This document shows, in pieces, positions 17,467 through 63,800 of a stretch of 64,000 bases of DNA. How positions within the stretch are numbered: position 1 is the stretch's first letter; every line of letters starts with the position of its first letter. The notes below the pieces were generated by a model. It did not search any database and was not told where the DNA came from. It saw only the letters and a program-made list of their open reading frames with translations. The DNA comes from Pelagomonas calceolata (lineage: Eukaryota), in contig CAKKNE010000004.1 of NCBI GenBank assembly GCA_918797485.1, positions 5,084,001 to 5,148,000 on the forward strand, given 5' to 3'. The translations under genes and the position numbers were made by a program.

Positions 17467-17504
17467 GACGTGGATGATGTGGCTGCCCTAAGCTGTCTTG
17501 CGTG

Positions 17505-42800: not shown

Positions 42801-45800
42801 ACAGCGTGCCGAGCGACGGCATGTCCTCGTCGACACCGCGCTGGCAGAAGTTGACGCCCTCGGCGCTGCCGCAGTCCGCGATGTCGAACTTGACGCTGAT
42901 TTTTTCCAGCGCCGGCACGTTGGCGAGCTGCGCCTCGAGCGCGGCCTTGGTCGCGGCCACGGTGCCCTGGTTCGTGTTGCAGTCGAGGAGGTAGAACCCA
43001 AAGGTCTGGACCTCGTCGACGCGCTTCACGGCGTAGGTGATGCGCTGCTTCTCGGGGACGGACGCGACCGTCGACCGGACGATCTGGACCTCGTCCTGGA
43101 ACGTGGCGGCCAGCGTCAGCGTCTGGACCTCGTCGACGTCGTTCGCCGTCGTCGTCACCGTCTGGACCTCCGGCGTCACCTCGTCGGCGGACGTCGTGAT
43201 GGTCTGGATCTCGTCGATGCCGTCGATGTTCGTGCGCACGGTCTGGACCTCGTTCTGCACCCAGACGCTGCCGCGCACGGACTGGACCTCGGAGTGCACG
43301 TCCGCGTCCAGCCCGACGAGCTGGTACTCGGACACGACCGGCGCCAGCGCGACGTCGGGCGTGCCGAAGGCCTCGTCGGCGTCGAACTCGACGCGGAACG
43401 CGTCGATCGTCGCGCCGCCGTCCTTGGGCGGCACGGACCAGGCCGCGTAGATCGACTCGGCGTCGACCGCCGGCGCGATCGCCTCGCTCGGCGGCGTGCC
43501 CGGCACGCCGTCGAGCGTCGTCGCGTACGCGGGCTCCGTGGCCGCCGCCGGCGACGCGCCCTCCGCGTTGAAGGCCGTGACGCGCACGTAGTACGTCTTG
43601 CCGCGCTCGAGCACGCGGCTCTCGACGCCCGTCAGCGGGTCCCGCCCGCCGATGAGGTAGGCCGTCGCCGAGGCCGGCACCATGACGCGCTCGGCCGGCG
43701 ACGAGAAGTCGTCGCGCACGTCCCACTCGACGGCGTACTCGGCGATCGCCGCGCCGCCGTCGCCGCCGTACTCGCAGCCCGGCGTCGCCGACGGCGCGCC
43801 CCACTCGACCTGGAGGCCCACGCCCGACGTGACGTCCAGCGTCGGCGCCCGGGGCGGCCCCGGCGTCCGCACCGTGCCGACGGCGCTGCTCGGGCTCGTC
43901 GCGGCGAACGGCGAGTAGTCGTAGCCGTTGTAGGCCGCCACGCGCACGAAGCGGGGCACCGACGCGGACACGGCCGCGATCTCGATGTCGTAGCACTCGG
44001 TCTCCGCGCCCGGCGTCGCCGCGACGCTCGCCTCGTAGCCCGACGTCTTGATGTTGCGGAAGTCCTCCGACACGTCCCACTGCACGAGGTAGCGGACGAC
44101 GGCCTGGCCGCCGTCGCTCGCCGGCGGCGCCCAGGCGACGCGCAGCGCCGTCGGCTCGAGGGCGTACAGCTCCGCGGTCCGCGGGACCGAGGGCGCCTCG
44201 ACGGGCGCGATCGCGCCCGTGACGATGGGCCCCTCCTGGCCGAGCATGCCCGCCTCGGCGATGGACTCGCCGTACCACGCCTCCGACCCGTCGCCCGAGC
44301 CGTCGATGCCCGGGCCCGTGTAGGCGCCGCGGCCCTCGTCGGTGATCGCCGCGACGCGCACGAAGTAGCCCGTGCCCGAGTCCAGGCCGGCGATGGTGTG
44401 CTTGATGGCGGCGCCCGCGACGACCTCGCTGCCGTAGTCGGCCGGCGTCGTGCCCTGCTCGAACGTCGCCACGCGCGCGGCGGCGTCGGGGCCCGTGAGC
44501 ATGTCGTCCAGCGGGTAGATGGGCGGCACGTCGCCGCGCGGGTGCCAGAACTTGACCTCGTAGTTGTAGCCGTTGTTGTTGACCGTGCGGACGACGTCCA
44601 CGTTCGAGATGGTCGTGAGGCCCTCGAGCGCGGCCTCGACCTCGGCGGCCGTGGCCTCGCACGAGAGCGGCGCCGTGGTGTGGCCCTCGAAGCCCAGGCG
44701 GAAGGTGCCCCGCAGCGGCGCCTGGCCCGGCCGCACGCGCTGCGCGCGCAGCGTCGGCGCCGTGCCCGCCCAGAGGTCCGACTCCCGCGCGTCGAGGAGC
44801 GGCCGCGGCCCGACGAAGCCCACGAACTCGATCGTCCACTCGTAGCCGTGGTCCCAGCGGTAGAGCTGCGCGCCGCCCGTGTCCTCGGAGATGTCCGAGC
44901 CCCGGAAGTTGAGCACGCTGGCGGCGTCGTCCGCCGTGCTCTCGCACTCGGCGCCGTCGACGTCGGGGTCCGTCTCGCTGTGCACGCGCAGCTCGATCTT
45001 CGTGGTGGTGCCCATCTTGAACTCGCCGACGCGGAGGACCTCGCCCGCCAGCATGATGACGCTCCGGCCCTCGTCCTCCAGCGCGGCGGCGAGCGCGTTC
45101 CCGTTGCCCTCGTTCAGCTTGATCGTGCACCCGCCGTGCCCGATGTAGCCCTTGTAGCCCCGCAGGGCCCGCATGGACAGGCGTCGCGTGACGCGCACCT
45201 CGCCCGACGACCCGAGCCGCTCCAGCGCCTCCTTCACGGAGCCGGCGCCCTCGGCGGGCGCGTCGACGGGGATCGGGTCCGTCGTCTCGCCGCCGATGGA
45301 CAGCGTGAAGTGGCCGTTGAGGCCCAGCTCGTCCGCGCCCGTCGTCACCGTCTGGACCTCCGTCACGCCGTCGCTCGCGGAGAGCGTGACGACCTGCGTC
45401 TCGGGCGTGCCCGGCTCCGAGTACCACTCGACCTCGTAGCCCTGGATCTTGGCGCCGCCGTCGTCCGACGGCGGGGACCAGCGCGCGATCAGCGACGTGC
45501 CGGAGCCGACGGCGACGCTGACCTTGTTCGGCGCCGAGGCCTGCGTCTTCGGGACGGCCGCGACCTCGGCCGAGACGGGCCCGTAGCCCGCCCGGTTGTA
45601 GGCCGTGACGCGCGCGTGGTACTCCCGGCCCGCCGTCAGGCCCGAGAACGCGTACGCGAAGGCGTCGCTGCCCGCGACGCGCTCCGTGACGTGGACCTCG
45701 GCCGTCGTCTCGCCGAAGTTCGTCGTGCCGACCATGAGGTTGGCGTCGGCGGCGCCCTGCGTCAGCGTGTGCCGCTGGTGCGTGAACGTGACCGTCCACG

Positions 45801-48800
45801 CGCGCGTGTTCAGGTTCGTGTCGAGGTCCTCCATGCGGACGTTCGTCGCGAAGATGGTGTCGAGGGCCTCGAGCCGCGCCTTCACCTCGGCGGCCGTCGC
45901 GCCCACGGCGATGGGCCCCGTCTCCTGGCCCTCGAAGTTGAGCGTGAAGGAGCCCGTGACGGGCGAGAGCGACGCGAGGTAGACGGTCTGGACCTCGTAC
46001 GAGAAGCCGCCCGGCAGCACGTCGCAGTCGCCGTCCTGCAGCGTGGCGACCTCGATGCGGGCGTCGTCGCCCACGAGGTACGTGTCGTCGGCCGTCAGCG
46101 GGCCGACGTCGCCGTAGACGCCGACGAAGACGACGCGCCACGTGTAGCCGCGCGCCGCGCGCGAGCGCGTGACGCGCACGGGCGGCACGCCGACGTCCCA
46201 GACGCCCGTCAGCTTGGACACGGCGTCGGCCACGTCCTCCGCCGCGACGTCGTACTTCAGGGCCTTGGTCGTGCGGCCGCCCCAGCTCAGCGTGAAGGTG
46301 CCGCGCCGCTCGGCCTCGGGCGCGCGGAAGTGCGTCGTCACCGTCTGGACCTCGTGCACGAAGGCGACCTCGTCGACGACGTACGCCGGCGACGCCGCGT
46401 CGAAGGCGCTGCTGTCGTCGAGCTCGACGCGGTAGGCCGTGACCGTCGCGCCGCCGTCGAGGTGGGGCGGGCGCCAGGCCAGCGACAGGCTCGTCCCGGA
46501 GTAGTGCTCGCCCAGCACGACCGCCGTCGGCCGCGACGGCACGCTCAGGCCGGGCGTCACCGTCCGCTCCTCGGACGGCGGGCCGAAGCCGAGCGCGTTC
46601 CGCGCGCTGACGCGGAAGCGGTACTCGTGGTCCGGCGAGAAGGCCAGGTACTGGGGCGGGTGCCGGCCGGGCGCCACGCCGTTCCGCACCGTGTCGACGT
46701 GGATCGACGTCCGGTTCGACGAGCTCGCCCAGGCCGAGACCCAGTCCGCGTGCACGAACTGCGCGTCGACCTCGAGGGCCGTCGCGCCGGCGTGGCGGCC
46801 GCCCCAGAAGGTCAGCGTGTACACGTAGCCGAACTCGGACGCGGCGTCGCCGCGGCCCGTCCGCTTGACGTCGACGCGGTCGACCTCGTTCAGCTTCTCG
46901 AGCGCGGCGCGCACGTCGTCCTCGGACGCGCCCCAGGCGATGGGCTCGGTCACGGTCGCCGCGGCCTCGCCGTCCGCCAGGTACCGGTCCGAGTGCGCCA
47001 GGCTCAGCGTGAAGTTGCCGCGGACGCCCTGCCGGTTCGCGGCGCACTCCGCGGACGCGCAGCGCAGCGCGACCGTCTGGACCTCGGCCGGCGCGCCCAG
47101 GATCTCGTCCCGCGGCGCCGCGCCGAAGGGCAGGCGGTAGCGCAGCTGCGCGCCCGTGCCGCGCCAGTTCTTCTGCGCCGTGGCCCGCACCGTGTTGATG
47201 GCGTCGAGCTTGCGCGCGCCGCCCGGGTCGGCGGCCAGCGGCGACGCGAAGTCCTTGAAGACCATGCAGTACTCGTAGCCGTTCGCCCAGCCGAAGGCCG
47301 TCGCGCCCTCGGCGCCGACGTCGAACGCGCCCCGGAGGAGGAGGGACGCTGCGTCGACGCGCCGGGCCACGTAGCGCTGGCGGCCGATCCAGACGTCGTC
47401 GCCGTCGGCCAGCGCGCCGCGGAGGTCCGCCGTCGTCGCGGCCGTCACGAGGTACGGGAAGACGTTCACGGTCGGCGTCCCCGCGTCGACGTCGACGTGG
47501 AGCTTGCGGTCGAGCAGCAGGCAGTCGGCGCCGCAGCCGAAGGCGTCGACGTCCTCCACGGCGTACGTCTGGCCGTCGACGACGATGCGCGTGCCGTTCA
47601 CCGCCGAGCCCGGCCCGTCCGCGGCGTCCGACGCGTTGAGCAGGTCGTGGCCGCCGGGGTGGAGGTAGACCACGCGCGAGTAGTCGAGGCCGCCGCTCAC
47701 CCGGGCCGCCGTCGGCGACGCCTGCCACACGGTCGTCGCGGGCGCGAAGCTCACGCGGCCCGGCAGCGCGGCGCGCGAGCGCGTCGTCGACCCGATGAAG
47801 GCCTGGTAGAGGCCCTGCACGTCCTTCGCCGGCGCCTCGCCCGCGTTCAGGTCGTACTGGTGCACGCGGTGGAGCTGGACGTCGCCGCGGAACAGGTCCG
47901 ACGGCGCGAAGGGCGTCGAGAGCCCGAAGACCGTGACGCCGCCCGCCGCCGCGACGTTGAGGCGGTCGAGGCCCAGCGTCAGGTTGCCCCGCACGAAGCG
48001 GTGCAGGTCCTTGATGCGCGGGTAGTAGGTCACGTCCGTGATGAGGCGCGTGGGCCCCGCGTCGTTGTCCCACGCGTCCGTGGCGTTCGACAGCCGCAGG
48101 GGGTCGCCGGCCGCGACGGCCGTCGACGCGTCCCCGAAGGCCACGGCGTAGGCCGCCGTGCCGTTCGGCAGGTAGACCGGGAGCGAGAGCGCGCCGTCGG
48201 CCGCGCCGAGCATCGCCGCGCGCGCGACGACGTCGAGCGCGTGCAGCTCGGCGAGGACCTTGCCGTGCGTCGCGTCCCAGCGGATGTCGCCCGTCTCCTG
48301 GCCGCCCACCGACAGCCGGAACGTGCCGGCCATGTCGCGCGCGTCGGCCATCGTCGACACGTTCACGACCGGGTAGACGTTCGCCGTCGCGTCGCCGCCC
48401 GTGAGCTTGGACGCGCCCGCCGCGAGCTGGTCGACGCGGCCGGCGGCCGGCGGGAAGGTCACGGCGAAGGCGACGCCGTAGGGCGCGTCGGCGTGGTCGT
48501 GCTTCGTCACCTCGACGCCCGGCACGAGCTCGCTCAGCAGCGCCTCGAGGTCGCGCGCGTGGCCGGCGACGGGGAAGCCCCGGATGACCTCGCCCGCGAA
48601 GTAGAGGTCGAGGGCGCCGCCGAGCGCCGTCGTCGCCTCGGCGACGACGACCTGCACGTCGCCGTTGCCGCCGGCGCACGTCTCGTGCGAGCCGATGGGC
48701 ACGATCGTCGCCGTGACGTTCGACTTCGTCAGCGTCGCGTCGCCCGTCTGCTTGACGCTGAACTCGGCGCAGCCGCCCATGCCCAGGCCCGTGGCCGCGT

Positions 48801-51800
48801 ACGACGTGCCGAAGGACTCGGCGGGGACGCGCAGCTGGGGCCACGCGCCGTCGACGTAGCTGCCCCGGAAGAGGATGGAGTACTCGAAGGGGAAGCCCGT
48901 CCGGTTCTGCGCCTCCGTGGCGCGCACCTGGACGGAGCCGGCCGGCACGAAGGGCAGCGCCTCGAGCGCGGCCTTGAGCTCGACCGCCGAGGCCTTGTAC
49001 GAGATGCACGCCGTCTCGTGGCCGCCCAGCTCCAGTTTGTAGCCCCCGGCGTCGACCCAGGCGTCCGCGTAGCCCTGCTGGGGGTCCACGGCCGCCAGGG
49101 TCAGGATCTGGATCGCGTCCCACGAGTCCAGCAGGCCGGCGTAGTGGCTGCCGCAGCGCCCGCGCGGGACGTCCGGCCCGCCGTCGGCGCGCCAGCTCCC
49201 GTCGCGGTTGCCGTCGGCGTCGGTGTAGACGACGAGGCTGCCGTAGTTCGCCGGGTACGAGACGCCGACGGCCGTGTTGTTGCGCACGGCGCCGGTGATG
49301 TTGCAGTCGAGCGGGTGGTCGATCGACTGGAGCTCGCCCACGTTGACCGCCACGCCGTCGATGTCGCCCACGTCCTGCAGCAGCTTGACGGTGTAGGTCG
49401 CGACGTTCTTCGTCGCCGACCGCGTCACGCGCGTCGCGCCGACGTTCGGCAGGGCCCCGAGCGCCTCCTGCACGACGTGCGCCGGCGCGAGCGGGCCCAT
49501 GGGGTGCGTCGTGAACGACCCCACCGAGACGGACCACCGCCCCTGCAGGTCGGCGAGGCCCCAGGGCCCGGCCTCGACCTCGAGCGTCCACGTCTCCGAG
49601 GACCTGGTGAAGCTCGACGCCGTCGTCCACTCGACGAGGTAGGCCTCCACGGGCAGGCCCCGGGCGTCGGCCTCGCCGTAGGACACGCGGACGCGCGAGT
49701 CGGACGCCGGCGCGAGCGCCAGGTCGGGCACGGGGCCCGGGATGCTCGCCGCCGCGAACGAGAACGGCACGACGCCGGCGCCCTGGCCCTGGGCGGCCGC
49801 CTCCACGCCCTTGGCCCCCCGCAGGGGCTCGTTCGTCCACTGGCCCGCGCCCTCCGAGTTCACGGCGCGGATGCGCGCCGAGTACGCCTTGCCCTCCTCG
49901 AGGCCCGTCGCGAGCGCGGCGTACGCCGGGTCCGCGCCCTCGGCGACCGTCTCCACCGCCAGCCGGACGCCGGTGCCCGTCAGGGCCGGCACGGCGATGA
50001 GCGGCGGCACGTTGCCGAGCTGCGACGCGAACTCTACCGTCCAGACGGCGCCGTAGGTCGCGCCGTTCTCGACGTTCGGCAGCGTCGTCTTCGTCGTCTT
50101 CACGCGGCCGACGCTGGCCAGGTTCTCGAGCTGCGTCGCGAGGTCCTCCGCCGTGGCGTCGAACTCGACGACGACCGGCGTCCACGCCCGGAAGACGGTG
50201 CCGGCGACGGCCGCCGTGTCCTCGAACGTCAGCGTGAAGGTGCCGTCGATGTCGTCCTTGGCCGCGGTGAGCGAGATGGACTGCACCTCCGCCGTCCCGC
50301 CCGACGCCGTCGCCGCGTACGTCGGGTTCTCGAACGACGGCGACAGGCCGCGGCGCTCGACGCGGGCCTCGGCGTACGTGTAGTTCCGGAGGTAGTTTGT
50401 TTTCTCCGTCGCCTCGGTGGGGTCCTGCACCGCGCTGACCAGCGTGGGCCAGTCCTTTTCCGCGCCGCCGCGCGCGGGGCCGTCGACCGTCGCCACGACG
50501 CAGCCCGAGTGGCCGAAGCGCTCGCCGTAGAGCGGGTAGTAGAAGCTCGACAGCGAGTCGGCGGGCGCGATGGCGCGCCGCGCCGTGTTCCAGGCCGGGT
50601 ACTTGGCCGCGACCTTGCGGTTCCACGCGCCGATGCGGTCGTTGTGCAGGGTCCTGTTGCCGTGGTAGGCGAGCATCCAGCCCGTGCCGTTGAAGCGGAG
50701 CGAGAAGGGCGTGCCGATCTGCTCGAAGACGCTGCGGCCGTTCTCGAGCAGGCCCGTCTCGACGTAGGCGCCGTTGTACAGCTCGACGTCGCACCCGCCC
50801 AGCGTCACGTAGTTGGCCGACTGCGCCGAGGCCGTGAGGCAGGGCGCGTCGGGGCACCGCGACGCCCCGTCGAGGCTCGTGAAGGTCACGGACCAGGTGT
50901 AGCCGTTCGTCGGGTTCGGGCCCCAGCGGCTCACCTCGACGGAGCCGAGGCCCGGGAGCGACTCGAGCGCGGCCTTCATCTCGCGCGCCGAGGCGTCGTG
51001 CGGCACGAGGACGTGCTGCCGGCGGTACGCCGAGGCGTTGCGGCCCCGCCGCTGCACGCCGGCGAGGCCCGTCGAGCCGTAGAGCGCCTCCTCGGTGCCG
51101 GGGAACCGGACGTTGCCGCCCCGCCCGTAGACGAGCGACGTCTCCCGGTCGCGCACGCGCCCGGACCACGACGACGCGTTCGACGTGAAGCCCGAGCCGA
51201 GCCGCGTCTGCTCGACGTACACGACGCACGCGGCGCAGCCGGCGAGGTGGTAGTCCTCGATGTCGAACGACTCGCCCGGGCCCGTCCGCCCCTGGCCCTT
51301 GTAGGCGTTGGCGGACGGGTAGGGGCGGCCCGGCGCGACGCGGTGGACCTCGTCGCCCAGCCGCACGAGGTCGCCCGGGTTGAGCAGCCCCGTGAGGTTG
51401 TACTCGACCGGCACCGTCACGCGCGTGCTCCCGGCCCGCACGGACGCCGTCACGATCTTCTGGGGCGCCGGGTCCCAGAGGGCCAGGTCCGGCGCGCCCG
51501 TGAAGTCCCAGGCGACCTCGAACTTGCCGCTGATGGGGCCGCGGTACTCGAGCCCGCCCTTGCGGTAGACGCGCGCGCCCGTCCGGATGGTCGCGACCTC
51601 GGGCACGGCGCCGGGCTGGAAGGCCGGCCGCGCGCTCGTCGCCGACGTCGCCACGGCGACCTGGGCCGGGTCGTAGGGCGCCGCGCAGGCGCCCGCGGGG
51701 CGCACGTACAGCGCGTCGACGTGGCTGTTGGACGTGTAGGCGCCGTCGTAGGTCACGGCGTAGCTCACGACGCCCGTCGCCGGGTCCTTGCTCTTCGCCA

Positions 51801-54800
51801 CGGACACGCCGTCCACGTAGGGCAGCTCCTCGAGGCGCAGCTCGAGCGTCGCCGCCGGCGCGTCGACGGCGACGCACGCGGTCGTGGCGTTGCCGCTCTC
51901 GAGCCGGTAGGACCCGGAGCCGAGCGAGGCCTCGGGGCCCAGCACCGGCGTCAGCGTCACGGTCTGCACCGCGGGCTGCCGGCCGCTGAGCTGGACCTCG
52001 TAGAGCGTGACCGCGGCGCCGTTGTTGCCCTCGGGGTACGCGAGCGCGGGCGGCCGGAAGTCGACGCGCACGGAGTGCGCCGCGAGGGCCGCGCACGCCT
52101 CGGAGTCGGCGCAGGCGCCCTCCGTGACGCCCGTGCCCAGCGCGGCGCGCTCGACGACGTCGGGCACGTCCGCGCAGAGCGCCGACGCGACGTTCGACGA
52201 CCACGGGCCCACGAGGTACTCGTCGTCGCCGCGCGCCTCGAAGGCGACGACGTGGCTGCGGCGCCAGTCGCCGGACCAGGCCGGCTTCGTCCGCGCCGCG
52301 ACGCGGAAGTAGTACTGGACGCCGGGCTTGAGGTCCGCGACCTCGTGCGCGAAGTGCGCGCCGACGGCCTTCGAGCCGAAGACGGGGAGCGACGGCAGCG
52401 ACGCGTTCACGGCGCGCCCCGCGTAGTCCTCCGTCAGCTCGAGGCAGGTCCCCTCGCTCGGGCAGTTCACGCGCTCGCCCGCGGCCGACTTGAAGAACGC
52501 GTCGCCGTTGACGGCCTTGACCTGGTAGTGCGCCCCGTCGACGTTGATGAAGTCGCCCGCTTCGAGGTCCGCCGCCGCGCCCACGGGCAGGACGAGCCGC
52601 GAGCGCTGCGCCGCGTCCGTCGACTCGGGCGACGCGTACACGACGTCGCCGAGCGTCCTATCCACAGACGCCGCCGAGACCTCGACGCGCCCGAGGGGCC
52701 CGACGTCGTAGCACTTGAAGAGCGAGTTCAGGTAGCCCAGCATCGTGCCCGGCCGGTAGCCCTCGACGCACTGCGAGGCGAACGACGGCGACGTGTCGTA
52801 CTCGAGCACGAAGGAGTCGATCGGCGCGCCGCCCGAGCTCAGCGGCTCGTCCCACCCGACGAGGACCTCGTGGTCGCCCGTGTGCGTCGCCGTGACCGAC
52901 CGCACGGCCATGGGCGCCGTCACCGCCGGCTGGAGCGGCGCGAGGCCCGTCGCGGCGCGGGCCTCGCCCGCGCCCGCGGACGTGTACGAGCTGACGCGCA
53001 CGTGCCACGAGCTGCCGTCCGAGATCGCGTCCGTCAGGAGCGCCTGGTAGGTCATGCGGCCCACGCGCTCCTGCGCGACGCCCTTGACGACCTCGTCGGC
53101 CCAGTGGTTCGTCGAGACGTAGATGGGCGGCACGTCGCCGCGCGCGCTCCCGAACTCGACGGTCACGTTCTGGCCCGAGCAGGGCAGCCACGTCACGTTC
53201 GCGCCGTCGAAGCGCGCCGTCCGCGGGCACTCGTCGCACGTGAGCGTCACGTCGCCCGCGACGGCCTCGATGGCCTCCTCGAGCGACACCTGCGCGTAGA
53301 CCTCCTCGCCGTCCTTCCCGAGGAGCCGCGTCCGGTCCGACTCGCCGACGGGGCCGCGGTGCAGCGCCAGGCCCGTGCCCTCGCCGACGTCCCGGAACGC
53401 GAACGTGTCCGGGAACGTCAGCTTGCTGGGCTTGCGCAGGTACAGCGTCTGGGTGTAGTCGCCGCGCACCTGGAGCGAGAAGCTGTCCGAGTTCTGCGAC
53501 CCGCCGGCCCGCCCGCCGTTGGCGTCGCAGATGAAGGTCTGCACCTCCTGCCGCGACCCCGTCAGCGTCGCGACCGCGGACACGTTGCCCGCGGCGCGCT
53601 GGCAGTCCGTGCCGAGCGGGTCGTTGCCCAGCCCCTCCTTGGTCGCGCAGCTCAGGAGGTTCACGCCGTCCACGGAGAGCTTGTGGCCCGCGACGGCCTG
53701 GTAGGGGCTCGCGTACCGCGTGTGCTGGTCGCCCGGGTACTGCACGGCGTCGAAGGTCACGAGCCACGTGTAGCCCTGCGGGTCGACGCAGTCCGTGGCC
53801 GCGTCCGGCGCCGGCGAGCAGCGCATCGTCCGCGTGACCGTGACGTCGTCGACCGTGCAGAGCGCCTCGAGCGCCGCCTCGACGGCGGCGGCCGACGCGT
53901 CGTACGGCAGCGCCTGCGTGTCCTGGCCGTCGAAGCTGAGGGCGAAGAAGCCGCCCAGGTAGCGCTCGCCCGTCGTCTCGGCGACCGTGACCGACTGCAC
54001 GTCCGCCACGCCGCGGCGGTCCGACGCGAACACGCGCACCGAGCCCGCGGCGTGGCCCTGCGCGCCCGAGTCGAAGGTCGGCGCCGGGTCGTACTCGACC
54101 TCGAACGACGTGACGGGCGCGCCGCCGTCGTTCTCCGGGCCGACCCACTCCACGAGCAGCTCCGTCGGCGAGACGACCTCGGCGCGCACGAGCGCCGGCG
54201 GGTCCGGCTTCTGGGTCTGCGGCGTCAGGCCGACCGGCGACGTCGTGCGGTAGGCGCCGACGCCGAAGTCGTTCCGGGCCGCCACGCGGACGTAGGTCGG
54301 GCCGCCGCCCGAGGGCGCCGGCACGAGCTTCTCGGCCACGGGCGTCACCGTCACTGTCGGTTGGATCGCCGCCTCGAGCCCGTCCTCGTTCGCGCCCAGG
54401 CCCAGCAGCGGCGAGAACATGAAGCGCGTGTCGTCGCGCGACTCGAGCTCGGCCGTGAACGTCACGTACCAGGCGTAGCCGTTGCTGCCCGTCTCGACGA
54501 CGCGCTCGACGTCGACGGTGCACACCTGCTGGAGCGCCTCCAGCGCGTACTTGACGTCGTCGGCCTCGGCGTCCCACGGCAGCGGCGCCGTCGTCTGCGC
54601 GCGCCACACGGGCACCGTCGACGTCTGGAGCGTCTGGACGGACCCCGTCGCGTTCGTGCCGAAGACGTACGAGGCGTCCTCGGCCTCGGCGTCGTGGCAG
54701 CCGTCCCGCCCCAGCGACACGACGGCGAGCTCGGGCACGTCGCCCCGCACGAGGTCGCCGACGAAGGTGACGAGGTAGCGGACGCCCCAGTAGTCGTCGC

Positions 54801-57800
54801 CGTACTCCTTCTTCATCTCCATGCGCGTGACCTCGACGTCGTCGATGCCCACGAGCGTCTCGAGCTCGGCCTCGACGGCCGTCGCGTCGTCGTCCCAGAC
54901 CATGCAGCCGGGCTCGCCGCCCGCCTCGGTCGCCGCCGTCGTCTCGTCGCCGAACTTGAGGCGGAAGCCCGAGGCCGAGACGGACCCCGCGGTGAGGTTG
55001 CAGTGCTCCGGGAAGCCGGCGCCGAGGGCCGGCTGCATGGCGTCGCAGTAGATGCGGACCTCCTGCACCTCGTAGGCGGCGTGCCGCAGCGCCTGGGCCG
55101 TGAGGCCGGCCTCGAGCATGGCGTCGTCGGCTTGCGCCAGCGGGACCGTCGTGTCGGAGAACTCCTTGGCGGGGTCCGTCGACACGCGGAAGGTCTCGCC
55201 CGTGCGCGGGTGGCCGACGCGGATGTAGTCGCCGCGCTTCAGGCCGTAGGCGCGCCAGTCGATCGAGGCGTCGCCGCCGCGGTTGCCGCGGCGCGGCGCG
55301 AGGGCCGCGTCGCCGATGGCCGGTCCCACGGCGCCCGAGAGCGACGTGTCGAGCTTGTAGAGCGGCGCCTGGCGGAGGTCGTCGCCGCGCGGCCCGCCGT
55401 CGTAGTACGCGGGCGTCCACGGGTCGTCGGCCCGGCACAGCGGCAGGGTCTTCGGGCCGTAGGCCGCGTAGTAGTACGTGTCGACGGTGCTGTCGGTCTT
55501 GAGGGCCTCCGTCGGGTAGGACAGGGACTGCTTGCCGCCGCCGGTCACGTTGTGCTCCACCAGGTCCGACTCGACGCAGACGCTGAAGGCCTGGCCGCCC
55601 ACGCGCAGGTAGTCCCCGCGCGCGAAGTACTTGGACAGGTCGAGGCGCTCGTCGAGGCCCGGCGCCGGCCGCGACCGCGTGACGACGGACCCGCCGTGGT
55701 CCACGTTCACGAGCGTCCGGTTCGGCGCGTCCCGCCCGCGGCCCCACCACTTGGTCTCGGCCTCGTCGAAGAGGACCCACGAGCCCTCGAAGTCGCCCAC
55801 CGACAGCGAGAACTGGGCGCCCGCCGTGAACGGCCGCGTGTGCGCGTCCGTCTCGATGCGCTGGACCGTGTAGTCCACGGCGTACTCCTGCACGAGCGTC
55901 GAGCCGTTCGGGAACGCCGCCGACTGCGACGACTCGACGACGTACGCCGTCACGGCGTCGCCGTTCGCGTCGGCGTCCTGGGCGTACTGCACGCGGAGCA
56001 GGTCCTGCGTGTGCCGCGACAGCTTGACGAGCGTCCGGAGCTCGGACGGCTCCTCGGCGGGGACGCCCGCCGCGACGCGGCTGGCGGCGCCGGCGCCCTG
56101 GTCCGTGAGGGCCGTCACGCGGAAGCCGTACTCGGCGCCGGTCGTCAGCGAGAGCATCGTGACCTCGGTCGCGTCGCCCGCGACCGTGACGTTCGTGTGG
56201 TTGTGCGGCACGACGCCCTTGTACTGCTCGACCACCTGCAGGTAGGGGGCCGAGACGCCCCGGTTGTCGTCCATCGCAGAGCTCAGGCGCAGCCCGAAGG
56301 CGTTGGCCACGAGCGGCGGCAGGTCGCCGACGTCCGTCAGGAACGTGACGGCCCAGACGTAGCCGTTGACGCGGCCGGCGTTCGGCGCCGGGTCCGTCGC
56401 CGCCGCCCCATGGAGGCCGTTGGCGGGGCTGGCGTTGGCCGGGTCGGCCGACGAGTCGTCGTCGAAGACGCGCGAGACGCGCACGTCGCCGAGGCTCGCG
56501 AGCGCGTCGAGCGCGCCCTCGACGTCGGCCGCGGACGCGTCCCAGGCCAGCGGGATCGTCGTGTCGCGGTGGTAGAGCGTCGCGCCGATCGCCGTCGCCC
56601 CGGTGTAGACCTGGTCCACGTAGAGGTGCGTGCTGTTGAAGACGCGGTTCTCCGCGACCGTCAGCGTCTGGCACGCGTCCGCCGCGGCGCAAACTTTAAT
56701 TTCGTCGCGGCGCCCGAGGTGCGGCGTCAGGTCGACGGACGTGCGCAGGTACTGCCGGCCCTGCGTCGCCGCGACCGTGCCCGGGAGCGGCTCGTCCACG
56801 TCGCCGAACGCGAGCGTGAACGTGCCGCCCGTCGCGTTGGTCCAGCGGTTGGGGACGTCGACGCTCGTGTAGGTCATGACCTTCTGGACCTCGGCGTGGC
56901 CGTAGAGCGAGCCCAGCGCGCTCGGCACGGCCTGCTTCGTCATGCGCTCGACGACGTAGCCTGATACGCTGCCGCCCGGCACGGTCGCCGGCTGCCACGC
57001 GACGCGCACGGAGTGCGCCGACGCGGGCGTCGCCGTCACGGCGCCCGGCGCCGCCGCGAGGCCGCGCACGAGCAGCGACGACGGGAGCGTGTCGACGAAC
57101 GAGCCCATGCCCTTGGCGGCGTTCTCGCAGGCCACGCGCACGTGGTAGTGCTGGCCCTCCGTCAGGCCCTCGATGCGGTAGCGCGCGCCGACGACGCGCA
57201 GCTCGCCCGCGAACTGGTGGTTGCCGTTGGCGGCCGAGCCGTAGGACGCCGCGCGCGCGTGGCCCGGCTCGACGAAGATCTGGGAGGACGCGCCGTTGAT
57301 CGCCGTGGCGTAGAGGTCGCCCGACCGGACCGTGAAGAGGTACGCGATGTCGTCGTCCGGGAAGGTGACGTAGAACTTGGCGCCCGCCTCGAGCGCGCGC
57401 CCGTCGTCGTTCTTGCCCGTGAACGTGAAGACGCCGTCGTCCGCGTCGAACTGCGTGACGCAGTCCGCGCAGCGCCAGTCCGCCGCCGCGACGACCGCGC
57501 GGCCCAGCGGCTCGCCGCCGGGGCCGCCGGCGAAGTCCGGCCGCGTGTCCCACTGCACCTCGAAGTTGACGACGGCGTCGCCGCCGTCGAAGACCGGCGC
57601 GCCGACCTCCACGAGGATGGCCGTGGGCGACGCGAGGTACGCGTTGGGCGCCTCGACGAAGCCGCCCGGCGCCAGCGCGCCGGGCAGGCCCGGCGCCTGG
57701 CGCGGCACCCGGACGACCGGCGGCCGCGTGAGGCGCCGCTGGCCGTAGCCGAGGCGGTTCCCCGCCGCGACGCGCACGTGGTACTCGACGCCCGGCAGCA

Positions 57801-60800
57801 GCGGCGGGTGCGAGCCGCGCGCCGGCCCGCCGATGGCGTAGGCGAAGTCCATGCCGTCGCCCTCGCCGACGGGCACCTCGACGAAGCGGTAGTCGCCGTC
57901 CCGGGGCAGGTGGGCGGCCTCCGACGCGTTCCGGTGGATGGTCACGTTGAAGTGCACGAAGTTTGCCTGACCCTTGGTGCCGCGGCCGCCGAGCTCGACG
58001 ACCGTGGACGCGTCCGTGTGGTACGTGAGCCCCTCGTCGAAGGGCTCGAGCATCGACATGTTCCCGATCACGTCCACGAACGTGATGTCGTAGTTGACCG
58101 ACGACGGGTCCCCGATGTCGGGGATGCTGACGTCGACCTCGCCCACGTTCGGCATGTTCTCGAGGATCGTCTTGACGTCGTAGGCCGTCGCGTTGCCCAC
58201 GAAGATGCGGGCCGACGTCGCGAAGGTCTTCACGACGGCGCGCTTGTCGTTCGTCGTGTTGAGCGAGAGGCGGATCGTGCCGTCGAGGCTGCCCGCGTTC
58301 TCGCCCGGCTTGCGGACGCGCACGCGCTGCACCACCGGGGCGTAGGCCGACCAGGGGATCTTGGAGTACTCCACGAGGTAGGACGTGACGCGGTCGCCGC
58401 CGTCGCCGTAGAGGTCGACGGAGTCGTTCCGCGGCGGCGCCCAGCGCACGAGGAGCTGCGAGCCCACGTCCTGCACCGTGTGGTCGTTGCCGTCCAGCGC
58501 CTCCAGGGACGGCGCGATCGGCGGGTCGGCCGACGTCATGGGCGTCGCCTCGAACGTCTCCGTCACGTCCGAGTAGCCGAGCGAGTTGTGCGCCGAGAGG
58601 CGCACGTAGACGCGCTGGCCGCGGCAGTCCGCCCCGTTGGCGCAGGTCAAATTCCACCACTGCTCCAGGTTCGACGAGTGCGGGTAGGGCGCGCCCTTGA
58701 CCGCCTCCTGCGACCCGTCGATCGTGTCGACGGACGTGCGGTTGTTGGCCACGACGACCGTCTGGTAGTCCTTGGTGAAGCGGTCGTCCATGGCCCACTC
58801 GACGCGATATTTGTCCACCGGCGCGCCGCGGCGCCCGCCGTTCTCCCACGAGACCATGAGCGACGCGGCCGTGAACGACTCGGGGCCCTCGAGCCCGTCC
58901 GTCACCGAGAGCGGTCCGCCGAAGCGGACGCGGCCCAGCCGCGCCGACGTCGACCGGCCCGCATTCTGCGCCAGCGACACCAGCGGCGGCTTCGGCACCG
59001 CGCGCGCGCGGATGATGTAGCTGTACGGCGGCGCGCGGCCGTCGTACGCGTCGATCTGCCGCAGCGGGTCGGCCAGGAGGAACACCTTCGCATCGTCCGC
59101 GATTGTAGCGGCGTCCGTTCCGTCGGCGCCACGCTCTACAGTCAGATCGTTAGTAGCAACGCCAGTCACTTTCAGAACCTCGTTGCCGATCAGGATGTAA
59201 GAGGGATTAGTAATACCATGCGAAGGATCTACCTCAATAGTGGTATCAGTAGCAATGTAAGTTGCACCGGGGTTGTTGATAGCTGTCTCGACCCCGGCCT
59301 TGACGTACTCGAGCGCCGGCGAGTGGTCGCCGGCGTTTTTGCCCTCGGAGCACTCGACGACGCCCTCGTAGGGGCACGTCGCCACGGCGCGGCGGCGCCC
59401 CTCGTAGGTGTCCTTGATGTCGTGCTGCACGTACCAGGACGGGATGCCCCTGGGGCCGCCGGCGCGCTCGTACGTGTACCACGCGGGCGGCGCCGCGCCC
59501 TGGCGGTTGATCGCGCGCACGCCGACGGCGTAGTAGTTGCCCGCCGTCAGGTTCGTGATGCGGAACTCGCGCGCGTCGGGCCCGACGAGCCGCGACCACG
59601 AGCCGCTGTACGGGAAGTCGTGGTCGGTGCTGTCGCCGAGCGGCGCCGAGCCGCGCTGGAACTCGGCGTTCGTCTTGTTCCACTCGACGGACCAGCCCGT
59701 GAGCGCCGCGCCGTGCGCGTCCTCCACGTCGCCCCAGGTCACGCGCAGCGACGTGGGCGAGTCGCGCTCCGCGAAGACGCGCGCCCACTCCGTGAGGCCG
59801 GGCGGCGCCGCGGCCGCGATGGCGCCCCGCTGGTCCTGGTAGTCCTGGGAGCTCTCGACCGGCGCCGCGGCGCCGACGCCCACGTCGTTCACCGCGCTCA
59901 GGCGCAGGAAGTAGGGCGTGCCCGGCGTCAGGGCCTCGGACGAGTGGTCGCGCGTCACCGAGTGGAAGACGTTCGTCGTGCGCACGTTCTCCAGGAGGCC
60001 CAGGGCCTTGGACTTGGTGAAGTTCGAGCAGACCCACGGCAGGCCGTGGTCCGCCGCCGTCAGGCGCGACACGATCTCCAGCTTGGAGACGGGCCAGCGC
60101 GAGAAGGCGCCGCCCGTGAACGTGACGCGGTAGCGGTAGCCGCTGCCGACCGTCGTGTTCGAGTCGCGGGACACCTCGACCGTCTCCTCGAAGGGCAGGT
60201 CGTCCATCTGCTGGCGGATGTGGTCCCGGACGTCGGCCGCCGTCGCGTTCTGCCGCAGGCACGTCGTCGGCGGCGCCACGACGTAGGCGTCGACGACCAT
60301 CTTGCCCGTGTGCGCGTCGACGTGCGCGCCCTGGCCCAGCGTGAAGGCCGTGTGCAGCGTCACGTTGCCGCCGCGGTCCGAGAGCGCGTCCTCCTGGAAG
60401 CCCGACGTCTGGTTGATGCCGTAGAGCTTGCCGTCGACGCCGCCGATGCGCACGAAGGAGCCCTTCGTCAGGACGTCGCCGCCGTAGGCGTAGTTGTCGC
60501 CCAGGTCCGAGACGTTGACGAACTCGGCGCGCGACGTCCCGGGGTTGACGACGAGCCGCGTCCGCGGCGACGAGGGCCCGGCGTAGAGCAGCTTGTAGGA
60601 GCCCCCCGTGAGCGGCTCCGAGCCCTCGGAGTAGACGCGCACGGACTGCACCTCGGCGCCGAGCTCGAAGGAGCACGGAACGCCGGCGCCGACGTAGCCC
60701 GAGACGCCGTCGGCGCCGTAGCCCTCGCACTCGAGGGCGACGTCGTCGCCCTGGAGCGCGCGCCAGTCGTACGAGTGCGTCGCGTCGTCGGGGAAGCTCG

Positions 60801-63800
60801 ACGACTCGGACCACTCGATGCGGTAGTTGCCCGCCTTGGCGGGCTCGTTGCCGCCGTGCGTCGTTTGCGCGAAGCCGTTCAGGTCGACGCGCGGCTGGTT
60901 GAAGACGACGCGCAGGCGGTCGGGGTACTCGCCGGGCGAGACGGACGCCGAGGCGTTCACCGGCGGGCCCAGGAGCTGGTCGGCCGGCTGCGCGCTCGCG
61001 GGCGTCGAGACCCGGGCGTCGCCGTAGCCCTTGGCGTTCCAGGCCGACACGCGCACCCAGTAGCTCCGGCCCGGCGTGAGGCCCCGGATCTGGAACTGGT
61101 GGTCTGAGAGGACCGTCAGGCCCCGCGCCGCGCTGGCGTTCACGGCGACCTGGCCGGCCGTCGTCGACGGCACGCTCGCGAAGCCCGCGCCGAGGTCGCT
61201 GATCGTGCTGAACTCGGGGTTCGAGTCCCACTCGACGAGGTACTTCTCGACCTTGTGGCCGCCCGACAGCACCGGCGGCGCCCAGGCCACGCCGAGGTTC
61301 GTCCGCGACACCGAGAACAGCTTGACGCGCGTCGGCGCCGAGGGCTCCCGGTACGCGGGCTTGATGGCGTAGCCGTCGGCGGCCGGCGCCGCGGCCAGCG
61401 TCACGTTGATCCCGTCGAACTTGGCGTCCGACTTCTGGCCGTAGCGGGCCTGGTAGTTCGAGATCTCGAGCGCCGCGTCGCGGTCGCCGCCGAACTCGAC
61501 CTCGTAGCCGAACTTCGTGTCGACGAGGTCGTAGACGTCGCCCATGTTCGCCGTCGACGCGTAGTCCGACGAGTCCCAGCGCCGCACGAGGACGGCGCCG
61601 CACTCGAGCTCCGTGAGGTCCATGATCGCGGCCGCGACGTCCGACGCCGTGGCGCCGGCCGCGATGGCCGCCGTCGACTCGGAGTTGCCGCGCGCGGACA
61701 CGTGCAGCATGAAGTCCGTGGAGCCCTTGCCGACGTCGATGCGGTAGACGGGCGCGTCGGCGCGCGACGCCGCCATGCGCGGCTCCGAGTAGCCCGCCGC
61801 GTTGTGCGCGAGCACGCGCACGTAGTAGGCCGTGCCCGTCGTCAGGGCCTCGAGCACGTGGGCGTAGCGGCCCTGGTCGTGCTCGAGGTCCTCGACCGGC
61901 ACGCGCGCGAAGCCGGTCGAGTCGTCGAAGCTCTCGTCGAGGTCGTACTGCACGAGGTAGTGCGTCACCGGGGCGCCGCCGTCGTCGTCGGGGGCGGCCC
62001 AGGACACGGCCAGGGACGTGGGCCCGGCGACGCTCACCTTGGGCGCGACGGGCGGCGTCGGCGCGACGTCGGCGGGCGCCGCCGTCAGCGCCGCGACGGC
62101 CGGCTCCGACCACGCGTCGGCGGCGTGCGTGTACGCCGCCACGCGCGCGTAGTGGGGCCGCCCCGCGGCGAGCCGCCCGTCGCCCACCGACACCCAGCGC
62201 GGGAGCCCGCCCTTCTGGGCCTCGGTGACGTTCGCGAACGGCGACGTGCCCTTGAGGTGGCCGTGCGCGCCGACGGCCTCGTTGAACTGCGTGCCGCCGC
62301 CGCCCGTGTCCACGAGGAGCGACGGCACGTCGCCCAGCGCCGCGTCGAACGTCACGCGCCAGACGCGCGCCGCGTGCTGCACCGGCTCCGTCGTGCGGTG
62401 CTCGACGTCCCGCACCGAGACCATGACGGGGCCCAGCGTCTTCAGGTCGTCGAGGGCCGTCGCCATCTCCTGCGCCGAGGCGTCGGCGTAGATCTTGTTC
62501 GACGTCTGGCCGCCGTACGACAGCCGGAAGTAGCCGTTGACGTCGGCGGCCTTGGCGCCGACCGCGACCTCCTGCACCTCGGGCCGCATCGCCACGTCCA
62601 CGGACCCGAGCGGGCGGCGGTAGATGCCCAGCGTGCCCTCGTCGAAGGCCGGCGCCAGGCCCCGCGTCACCTCCTCGACCTCGGCGGCGACGGCCGCGCC
62701 GCCGGCGTCCCGCAGCGCGTCGACGGAGACCGCGAGGGCGGGCACGTCGCCGACGTTCGTCCGGAAGACGACGTCGTAGGACGCGGCGCCCTTGGTCACG
62801 TCGACCTCGCCGATCGTCGGCAGCGCCTCGAGCGCCGTCTTCAGCCGCTCGCCGGACGCGCCCGCCGGGATCGGCGGCGTCGTGGCGCCCTGGAAGGCGA
62901 GCGCGAAGGCGCCGACGATGTCCGTTGCCTTGAACTTGACGCGCTGGACCTCGTGCACGGCCTCGCTCGAGTCCCACTCGACGCGGTACGCCGTGACGCG
63001 CGCGCCGCCGTCGTCGACGGGCGGCGTCCACGTGACGTTCAGCGACCCCTCGCCGAGCGGCTTGATGGCGACCGTGCGCGGCGGCGACGGCGCCGCCGCC
63101 GGCGTCAGCGACGCGGGCGTCGCGTGCGCCGGGAGGCCGTAGACGCTGCGCACGCCGTTGTACATGGCCACGGACACGGCATAGGGCTCGCCGGCCTCCA
63201 GGTCGTCCAGCATGAAGACGTACTGGCCGTCGGCGTCCCGCTCGAGGTCGCTCAGCCGCACCTCGGCCTCGCCCTTGAGCGGCGAGTCCATGGCCGGCAC
63301 GCGGCCCGCCACGACGACGCTCACGGCCACGCCCGTCGTGGCCTGCTTGTTCGGCGAGGCGTAGAGGCGCGTCGAGTCCGCCTGCAGCGGCGGCACCGTG
63401 CCCAGCCGCTCGAGGAACACGATCGTGTACTCCTTGCCGTCGGTCGCCTGCGCCGCGCCGACGAACAGCTCGCCCGTGCCGATGGCCTCGAGCGCGGCCT
63501 TGACCTCGGCCGCGGACGCGCCGGCCTCGAGGTAGGGCGTCGCCACGAGGCCGTCGGGCGAGTCGTACTTGAGCGCGAACGAGCCGCGGAGCGACGCGTT
63601 CTTCGCGTACGCGAGGACGGTCTGCACGCAGAAGCCGTCGTAGCGGTGCACGAGCGTGTCCGCCGTGAGGGACGCGTCCGTGCCCGTCATCGTCGTCGCC
63701 GCGGCCGACCCGTCGAGCGTCGCCGCGGCGAGCTCCTCGACGAGCTTGTAGTTCGAGGCCAGCGACCGGTTCATGGCGCTCACGCGGAGCGAGGGCAGGT

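What the first reader, a model, noticed from the sequence alone, without database searches (positions are those of the whole stretch)
59095..59290. In-frame low-GC island encoding a phage-like module inside the giant gene
Seen: 59141-59280 is 64/140 G+C (46%) with many A/T-ending codons, inside flanks of roughly 70% GC. It stays in frame and encodes AINNPGATYIATDTTIEVDPSHGITNPSYILIGNEVLKVTGVATNDLTVERGADGTDAATIADDAKV. From memory, the pattern I.I.NE...VT.V..N.LTV.RG..GT.AA......V is typical of phage virion and bacterial structural proteins. Inference: a recent, unameliorated domain-sized horizontal insertion, suggesting the protein still captures foreign modules.
Basis: partly seen in the sequence, partly recalled or inferred. 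Interest (0 to 1): 0.82.

Follow-up and report, generated by a model that had tools for sequence, protein, structure and literature searches.

The report
Hypervariable phage-like cassette in algal protein
A giant, likely secreted protein of a common ocean alga carries a small phage-like domain whose sequence differs widely among wild cells while its flanks stay almost identical, and which is likely reshuffled with copies in other genes, possibly to stay ahead of viruses or grazers.

Summary
The low-GC island is real: 34 of 66 codons end in A/T against 68 of 11,971 in the rest of a 12,037-aa fibronectin-III ORF. It encodes a predicted six-stranded beta-barrel of a family found in phage virion proteins. 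It is not a recent phage insertion. No phage DNA matches, and the best phage proteins are 47-52% identical. Its nearest relatives are modules in at least two other genes of what is likely the same alga (a pelagophyte, likely Pelagomonas calceolata). These are also low in GC3 (0.40-0.60) inside near-1.0 hosts. The real finding is hypervariability. In 5 of 5 wild ocean runs laid, contigs break at the island's edges; flanks differ by about 0.4% (three runs), and several divergent alleles co-occur, with in-frame length changes. Protein alleles are 50-84% identical in the module and about 97-100% in the flanks. Changes cluster in loops, and one allele is a mosaic with another gene's module. No splicing, chimera or empty site was seen. 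Best reading: an old display domain diversified and shuffled between alleles and loci, whose low GC3 likely marks local escape from GC-biased gene conversion. Function is untested.

The parts
27886..63999 (-). Giant ORF, at least 12,037 aa (start lies beyond the window), many FN3 domains, GC3 0.99; likely secreted
   Evidence: 102 NxS/T sequons; no hydrophobic segment over the threshold in the part held; 48% identical over 1,301 aa to an Aureococcus protein
59074..59310 (-). Inserted beta-barrel module, including its host-like terminal strands
   Evidence: AlphaFold2 model of 59307-59068: pLDDT 94.9, six strands; matches to phage capsid and baseplate-hub domains
59086..59286 (-). Low-GC3 hypervariable core; wild contigs break at 59085-59088 and 59282-59285
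   Evidence: codons; break points and alleles; protein alleles
59164..59199 (-). Most conserved motif of the module, shared with copies in other genes; likely crossover anchor
   Evidence: culture and wild contigs of other genes match mainly over or around this stretch; mosaic alleles switch affinity across it
59287..59310 (-). N-terminal strand (EYVK motif), also found before the module arrays of two other genes; all codons G/C-ending
59074..59088 (-). C-terminal strand (KVFLL-type motif) shared by the algal copies; G/C-ending codons
59479..59766 (-). FN3 domain upstream of the module; nearly invariant in wild runs
   Evidence: Pfam fn3, residues 246-341 of P0001; 0-3 differences in 816-817 bases of 59284/5-60100 in X14, X15, X18

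Best explanation
The island encodes a predicted beta-barrel domain in a giant, likely secreted algal protein; it is hypervariable among wild alleles between near-identical flanks, is likely diversified under pressure from viruses, grazers or partners, is likely reshuffled by recombination between alleles and with copies in other genes, and likely owes its low GC3 to local escape from GC-biased gene conversion rather than to recent import. Shown: the codon island; many co-occurring alleles with in-frame length changes; loop-biased variation; paralogous low-GC3 modules in other genes; mosaic alleles at protein level. Inferred: (1) the domain entered the lineage long ago, probably from the phage/bacterial family, since its end strands are at host GC3 and the algal copies group together; (2) segments are exchanged through the conserved central motif; (3) alleles too divergent to pair escape the GC-favouring repair that holds the flanks at GC3 0.99, so third positions relax towards the roughly 50% GC of this genus's non-recombining centromeres; (4) the selective agent binds the exposed loops. 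Steps 3 and 4 are untested.
For: Wild runs X14, X15, X18, X16, X19 (5 of 5 laid, of 7 listed) break at the island's edges. Flanks differ at 21 of 4,781 aligned bases in X14, X15 and X18, against 16 differences in 160 bases plus a replaced segment in one allele (X15 record 13) and 16 plus 3 gaps in 148 in another (X18 record 18). Four length differences that can be worked out from the tables are +3, +3, +6 and +6 bases (my arithmetic). Protein alleles: P0005 41/66 in the module with 98/100 in the left flank; P0160 49/66 with 99/100 on both sides; P0013 41/49 with 100/100 on the right; P0003 two tandem modules, 32/64. Changes fall in loops 59/135 against strands 26/109, p 0.001. Mosaics: P0003's second module has its N-half 25/32 identical to another gene's module and its C-half nearest this locus's alleles (21/30); P0160's halves are nearest different alleles. 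Genes B and C share a near-identical module (P0006 84-159 and P0008 557-628). Paralogous modules have GC3 0.40-0.60; L001 has 89 straight G/C-ending codons just before its array, and L009 one A/T-ending codon in about 800 after its array. GC3 rises with amino-acid conservation across six copies, also within amino acids (odds ratio 2.8, p 2e-6). Tree: 25 of 26 algal rows in one clade, SH-aLRT 95. Centromeric 52% GC is attributed to suppressed gBGC in P. calceolata (PMC9481584, passages and supplement passages).
Against: The clearest inter-locus mosaic (P0003) is one 502-bp metagenome contig and could be a misassembly through the shared motif; no DNA conversion tract between loci was mapped. Two alleles of gene B (L001, L002) show no module-versus-flank contrast: modules 2/234, 10/222 and 8/177 against host exons 8/359 and 20/356; only a spacer (12/48) stands out. 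Within the window's own module, the link between variability and A/T-ending codons is not significant (27/45 against 7/21, p 0.064), and the six copies in the GC3 test are not independent. The tree is the quick search (75 columns, no bootstrap, careful run unfinished); two non-algal-looking rows (P0042, P0075) sit inside the clade and one algal row outside. Secretion, surface display and any ligand are unshown, and the protein's N-terminus lies outside the window. No genome was held, so recombination rate and donor sites could not be examined.
Confidence: 0.6

Rival explanations
1. A silent archive of module cassettes, for instance in low-GC centromeric regions, is copied into expressed genes by programmed gene conversion, as in antigenic variation; the low GC3 is that of the archive.
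For: Sharp, repeatable allele boundaries; mosaics; modules shared between genes. The genus has low-GC regions of about 52% (PMC9481584).
Against: Culture DNA (X7, X12) has only 2 other contigs, with 3 module stretches, at 80% likeness or more. One of them is the source of about 4,090 poly-A reads and so is expressed, not silent. 13 culture runs of 5 studies (2013-2024) hold 0.96-1.00 of the window's sampled words (3 flagged as possible source, kind guessed for most, possibly one lineage). Poly-A reads of X21 show no second allele, though only at depth 3-5.
Confidence: 0.12
2. A targeted, AT-biased hypermutation process acts on these modules and produces both the diversity and the low GC3, with purifying selection keeping the fold.
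For: Codon-sharp GC3 switch at the same motif in different genes; lowest GC3 in the most variable columns.
Against: Allele differences run in all directions, with no adenine- or cytosine-specific pattern (tables). The same alleles recur in separate wild samples (X15 record 13 and X19 record 13 share their listed differences), which fits old standing variation. Cultures appear unchanged.
Confidence: 0.12
3. One reading: a recent, unameliorated horizontal insertion from a phage or bacterium, or repeated fresh imports from such a pool.
For: The family is common in phage virion and bacterial proteins. The Aureococcus gene model lacks the 156 residues around the module. One non-algal-looking protein (P0032) scores slightly above the best paralogue against the window's module.
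Against: No DNA match in phage records; protein identity 47-52% to phages and 39-50% to the viral and prokaryotic loci found; viral GC3 0.08-0.09; algal copies cluster; end strands at host GC3; no empty-site joint in 5 wild runs; no IMG/VR relative of the gene-B array.
Confidence: 0.08
4. The island is a 207-base spliced intron (introner-sized, GT...AG at 59292-59086) or an assembly chimera.
For: In-frame GT and AG ends 207 bases apart; introns of this genus peak near 210 bases (PMC9481584). Raw-read depth at the 3' junction is under 1 in X21.
Against: No joint skipping it in 5 RNA runs (X21, X15, X18, X16, X19), while joints for replaced alleles were reported; X21 reads continue across the 5' junction at depth about 5. 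No terminal inverted repeat or target duplication over 6 bases. Length changes are in frame and the fold is confident. X7 and X12 span it in one contig at flat depth (possible source runs), and wild contigs repeat parts of it with 0 differences.
Confidence: 0.03

Closest known systems
Small six-stranded beta-barrel of phage virion proteins (Vibrio phage VP1 major-capsid insertion, PDB 9in6; Pseudomonas phage JBD30 baseplate hub, PDB 8rk3; cyanophage sheath and tail proteins)
   Same: Sequence profile (E 9e-6 and 2e-5) and fold (TM 0.79 to 9in6; 32 viral models at E up to 0.001). In JBD30 a small six-stranded barrel extends from a fibronectin-like domain (PMC11445458, passages); that this is the matched stretch is my inference.
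   Different: Here it sits in a eukaryotic giant FN3 protein, groups with algal copies and is hypervariable among alleles. No Pfam family covers it.
Plasmodium falciparum DBLMSP/DBLMSP2 (PMC10919680, abstract and outline seen)
   Same: Deeply diverged alleles confined to one domain, with sequence shared between paralogues, attributed there to non-allelic gene conversion.
   Different: There two lineages and two genes of a parasite surface antigen; here many alleles, copy-number change, at least three host genes, a free-living alga, a phage-type domain and a sharp GC3 footprint. That paper argues against recombination suppression as the source of its genealogy, whereas I invoke it here only for base composition.
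[quoted passage not shown]
   Same: Stramenopile alga; repeat units diversified and shuffled in candidate recognition proteins.
   Different: There each repeat is an exon of an LRR or TPR domain in signalling proteins; here the unit is an unspliced in-frame beta-barrel in likely extracellular proteins.
Mamiellales outlier chromosomes (10.1101/2025.04.21.649811, search listing only)
   Same: Low GC coupled with hypervariability in a marine picoalga.
   Different: There whole chromosomes; here about 200 bases inside a gene whose GC3 is 0.99.
Cassette antigenic variation (trypanosome VSG, Borrelia vlsE; recalled, no call)
   Same: Variable segment between conserved flanks; mosaic alleles.
   Different: No silent archive and no switching in culture were seen.

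Membership tests
Recent horizontal insertion from phage/bacterium | Close DNA or protein match to a donor | tested here: not met
Recent horizontal insertion from phage/bacterium | Donor-like composition across the whole insert and unique to it | tested here: not met
   End strands at host GC3; paralogues 0.40-0.60; viral copies 0.08-0.09
Recent horizontal insertion from phage/bacterium | Empty-site allele or orthologue | tested here: inconclusive
   No empty-site joint in 5 wild runs; the Aureococcus gene model skips 156 residues here, but its DNA could not be read
Recent horizontal insertion from phage/bacterium | Nests among donors rather than host copies in a tree | tested here: not met
   Quick tree, clade of 28 rows with 25 of 26 algal rows, SH-aLRT 95; weak, no clade test run
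Phage virion small beta-barrel family | Sequence motif | tested here: met
Phage virion small beta-barrel family | Six-stranded barrel fold | tested here: met
   (predicted model)
Introner element / spliceosomal intron | GT/GC...AG ends, about 210 bases | tested here: met
Introner element / spliceosomal intron | Terminal inverted repeats, target duplication, near-identical copies | tested here: not met
   only 3 partial copies in culture DNA
Introner element / spliceosomal intron | Removed from mRNA | tested here: not met
   No skipping joint in 5 RNA runs; raw-read depth is low
DBLMSP-type paralogue gene conversion | Deep allelic divergence confined to one domain | tested here: met
DBLMSP-type paralogue gene conversion | Sequence shared between paralogues at the variable domain | tested here: inconclusive
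   P0003 mosaic and a module shared by genes B and C, protein level only; misassembly not excluded
DBLMSP-type paralogue gene conversion | Cell-surface location and a selecting ligand | not testable with these tools
   Only FN3 and EGF-like context and sequons
Programmed antigenic variation (VSG/vlsE type) | Silent donor archive | tested here: inconclusive
Programmed antigenic variation (VSG/vlsE type) | Switching within clonal cultures | tested here: inconclusive
   Culture runs hold the same allele; depth too low for rare switches
Diversity-generating retroelement | Adenine-specific substitutions | tested here: not met
   Differences at all four bases in the tables
Diversity-generating retroelement | Template repeat and reverse transcriptase | not tested
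   No second copy in the window; genome not held
Ectocarpus-type exon shuffling | Each repeat is its own exon | tested here: not met
   No splice joints at the module; tandem modules are contiguous in L001, L002, L009

The most novel reading that the evidence does not exclude
One of the ocean's most abundant picoalgae runs a genome-wide diversification system built on a domesticated phage virion domain. The barrel is displayed on several giant extracellular proteins, its loops are varied and swapped between genes as cassettes, and the variable cassettes are marked to the codon by a drop in GC3 from 0.99 to about 0.5. A GC3 scan of the genome would then list the alga's virus- or grazer-facing hypervariable sites.
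Probability: 0.35. Interest if true: 0.88.

Novelty: new variant of a known kind. Interest (0 to 1): 0.72.

Why it matters
How hugely abundant, genetically uniform open-ocean picoeukaryotes keep surface diversity against viruses and grazers is an open question. This gives a 200-base locus where many alleles coexist in single seawater samples between flanks that differ by about 0.4%, directly measurable by amplicons across time and space. It is also a caution: a sharp in-frame low-GC island with phage-like hits, the usual sign of recent gene transfer, here marks an old, hypervariable, multi-copy host domain. If the gBGC reading holds, the footprint shows at codon resolution where recombination-linked repair stops.

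Tried and rejected
No genome was held for the window, so genome-wide counts were impossible. Pfam has no family for the module, and the single sequence found nothing significant in PDB sequences; only the profile did. There is no second copy in the 12,037-aa protein or the window. The first JGI metagenome scan with the flanks found no relative among 357 pattern matches. Of the 15 loci from the second scan, only L001, L002 and L009 carried modules; the other 12 had no module hit and matched through the introner-like tail of the query, and were dropped. The IMG/VR scan with the gene-B array found none; the scan with the multi-sequence alignment could not be run. The ESM Atlas and VIA-align did not complete, so those comparisons are missing. 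The careful tree did not finish and no clade test was run. CpG deamination and adenine-specific mutagenesis were considered by eye on the codons and the tables; neither explains the pattern. P0156 and P0157 (frameshifted) and P0159 (breaks off before the module) were left out of allele counts; P0004 and P0158 cover only the module's start. Three look-ups of earlier scan findings returned nothing. Literature searches found no description of this module or its variation; the library lacks most subscription papers.

Full report
Observation. The island lies in frame in a minus-strand ORF, 27886-63999, of at least 12,037 codons with many FN3 domains and GC3 0.99. Codons 1572-1637 (59286-59089) end in A/T 34 times of 66, against 68 of 11,971 elsewhere (p 2.6e-58); no other 66-codon stretch exceeds 10. 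There is no second copy in the protein or window.

Organism. No genome was held. The nearest named relative of the giant protein is an Aureococcus anophagefferens protein, 48% identical over 1,301 aa. The contigs of one culture DNA run total 31.4 million letters, close to the 31-32 Mb of Pelagomonas calceolata (PMC9481584, passages), and the stretch is found in marine metatranscriptomes. I therefore infer a pelagophyte, likely P. calceolata.

What the module is. AlphaFold2 on a 48-row alignment gives a confident six-stranded model (pLDDT 94.9). Foldseek's best solved match is the major capsid of Vibrio phage VP1 (TM 0.79, E 6e-4), then the JBD30 baseplate (E 0.04); 32 viral models match at E up to 0.001. 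A profile finds the same two structures and a minor tail protein by sequence. In JBD30 a small six-stranded barrel extends from a fibronectin-like domain of the hub (PMC11445458, passages); that this is the matched stretch is inferred. The family is wide: 233 of 1.84 billion representatives at E up to 0.001. By sequence these include phage capsid and tail proteins and bacterial giants, and by name cryptophyte proteins with 7-11 copies.

Not an intron or chimera. An in-frame GT...AG pair 207 bases apart exists, and introns of this genus peak near 210 bases. But no terminal repeats over 6 bases flank it, and none of 5 RNA runs laid shows a skipping joint. Culture poly-A reads cross the 5' junction at depth about 5; the 3' junction is barely covered. 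Culture DNA runs X7 and X12 span it in one contig at flat depth (both may be the source). Wild contigs repeat 124-, 142- and 136-base pieces of it without a difference (X15, X18, X19).

The site is hypervariable. Culture runs hold 0.96-1.00 of the sampled words of 58300-60100, and the 7 wild runs 0.81-0.86. In 5 of 5 wild runs laid, flank contigs stop at 59085-59088 and 59282-59285, the island's edges. Flanks differ from the window at 21 of 4,781 aligned bases in X14, X15 and X18. Inside, each run holds several alleles: X15 record 13 has 16 differences in 160 bases plus a replaced segment, and X18 record 18 has 16 plus 3 gaps in 148. One allele recurs in X15 and X19; read by hand from its 13 listed differences, 6 of 10 altered codons change the residue. 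The four length differences that can be worked out are +3, +3, +6 and +6 bases (my arithmetic; the two +6 values assume the short matched piece reaches the record's end). No joint corresponds to an empty site. Predicted proteins agree: P0005 41/66 in the module with a 98/100 left flank; P0160 49/66 with 99/100 on both sides; P0013 41/49 with 100/100 on the right; P0003 two tandem modules before the same right flank. P0004 and P0158 diverge within a few residues of the module's start. Three frameshifted or broken records (P0156, P0157, P0159) were not counted. Across the four fuller alleles, changes fall in loops (59/135) more than strands (26/109), p 0.001.

The module is a family in the alga. 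Culture DNA holds two further contigs with three module stretches. One is the source of about 4,090 poly-A reads in X21, against a depth of about 5 for the giant gene. Metagenome records give gene B, an array after an EYVK motif followed by EGF-like domains (L001, L002, P0006, P0007, P0166, and the 18-member P0136 cluster, 15 listed); grouping these into one gene is my inference from overlaps. They also give a second giant FN3-type gene or genes (P0008, L009). These records are assigned to the same alga only by resemblance, shared introner-like repeats and one matching culture contig. The last module of gene B also has strongly different alleles. In DNA, every algal copy has GC3 0.40-0.60 in hosts near 1.0, with a switch within a few codons. 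In a quick tree of 160 rows (all 26 distinct algal-type instances plus the best instance of each other protein, out of 547 instances), 25 of 26 algal rows form one clade at SH-aLRT 95, together with P0044 (gene B by sequence) and two non-algal-looking rows. Support is weak: 75 columns, no bootstrap.

Against recent import. Blastn on 50,697 phage records gives only 26-27-base chance hits. Tblastn gives 10 cyanophage records at 47-52% over 57-71% of the query. Scans of IMG/VR and prokaryote genomes gave 2 loci each at 39-50%, and the viral copies have GC3 0.08-0.09. The strands at both ends of the insert, shared with the other genes, already have host GC3. The Aureococcus gene model lacks 156 residues here, so the insertion may postdate that split, or the model may skip it. 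The pangenome preprint on pelagophyte gene transfer has no passage on GC3, hypervariability or fibronectin (10.1101/2024.10.30.620910, term search; supplements not seen).

Mechanism. Mosaics point to segmental exchange through the conserved central motif. P0003's second module is 25/32 identical in its N-half to a gene-B module and nearest this locus in its C-half; P0160's halves are nearest different alleles; genes B and C share a near-identical module. P0003 is a single 502-bp contig, so misassembly is not excluded. Across six algal DNA copies, GC3 is 129/196 in conserved and 82/213 in variable columns, and the link holds within amino acids (odds ratio 2.8, p 2e-6). The copies are not independent, and within the window's module alone the trend is not significant (p 0.064). 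This is what would follow if divergent alleles cannot pair and so escape GC-biased gene conversion, the process the genome paper invokes for the 52% GC centromeres (supplement passages). Two gene-B alleles (L001, L002) do not show a module-versus-flank contrast, so hypervariability is not seen in every pair. The selecting agent is unknown. FN3 and EGF-like context, 102 sequons and loop-biased change suggest an exposed binding surface, but the N-terminus is outside the window and location is untested. Cultures of 5 studies over 2013-2024 keep the same allele (possibly one lineage), which argues against fast programmed switching.

Comparison and novelty. It works like the Plasmodium DBLMSP pair, with domain-restricted deep alleles shared between paralogues (PMC10919680, abstract). 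It is not an Ectocarpus-type exon-shuffling system (PMC3341825, abstract), an introner or, on its substitution pattern, a diversity-generating retroelement. Six literature searches found no description of this module or its variation in pelagophytes; subscription papers are largely missing, and the genome paper's tables of low-GC genes were not inspected. Verdict: a real and unusual feature, a new variant of hypervariable-domain systems; best explanation 0.6, interest 0.72.

Noticed in passing
window 2889-3088, 16370-16489, 26766-26879; L001 1659-1858: About 200-base repeats in the window match elements in L001 and L003-L008 at 78-91%; likely introner elements. One sits inside the fourth module of the gene-B array in L001.
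   Followed up: partly
window 59163-59198 (match only); X7 record 22, X12 record 3: A different gene with a paralogous module is expressed several hundred times more than the giant gene in culture poly-A reads (about 4,090 reads). Wild runs X15 and X19 show what looks like a different allele of it. The gene was not identified.
   Followed up: partly
window about 42920-42650 and 28320-28090: Two minor clusters of A/T-ending codons in the giant ORF (up to 10 in 66 codons); they may be smaller variable spots.
   Followed up: no
P0065, P0150, PDB 9in6: The same barrel appears inserted in phage major capsid proteins, one of them an apparent protease-capsid fusion.
   Followed up: no
P0011, P0019, P0025: Cryptophytes (Rhodomonas salina, Guillardia theta) have proteins with 7-11 copies of the module; whether these are hypervariable or low in GC3 was not checked.
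   Followed up: no
window 16450-17487 (-): Glycosyl hydrolase family 88 match (E 2e-11); the other 13 window ORFs scanned had no Pfam hit at 1e-4.
   Followed up: no
window 27886-63999 (-): The giant gene runs at least 36 kb without a stop or evident intron at GC3 0.99, and is present in long RNA-library contigs of wild runs.
   Followed up: partly
L001/L002 spacer between modules B and C: 12 differences in 48 bases between two alleles whose neighbouring modules differ by only 1-5%.
   Followed up: no
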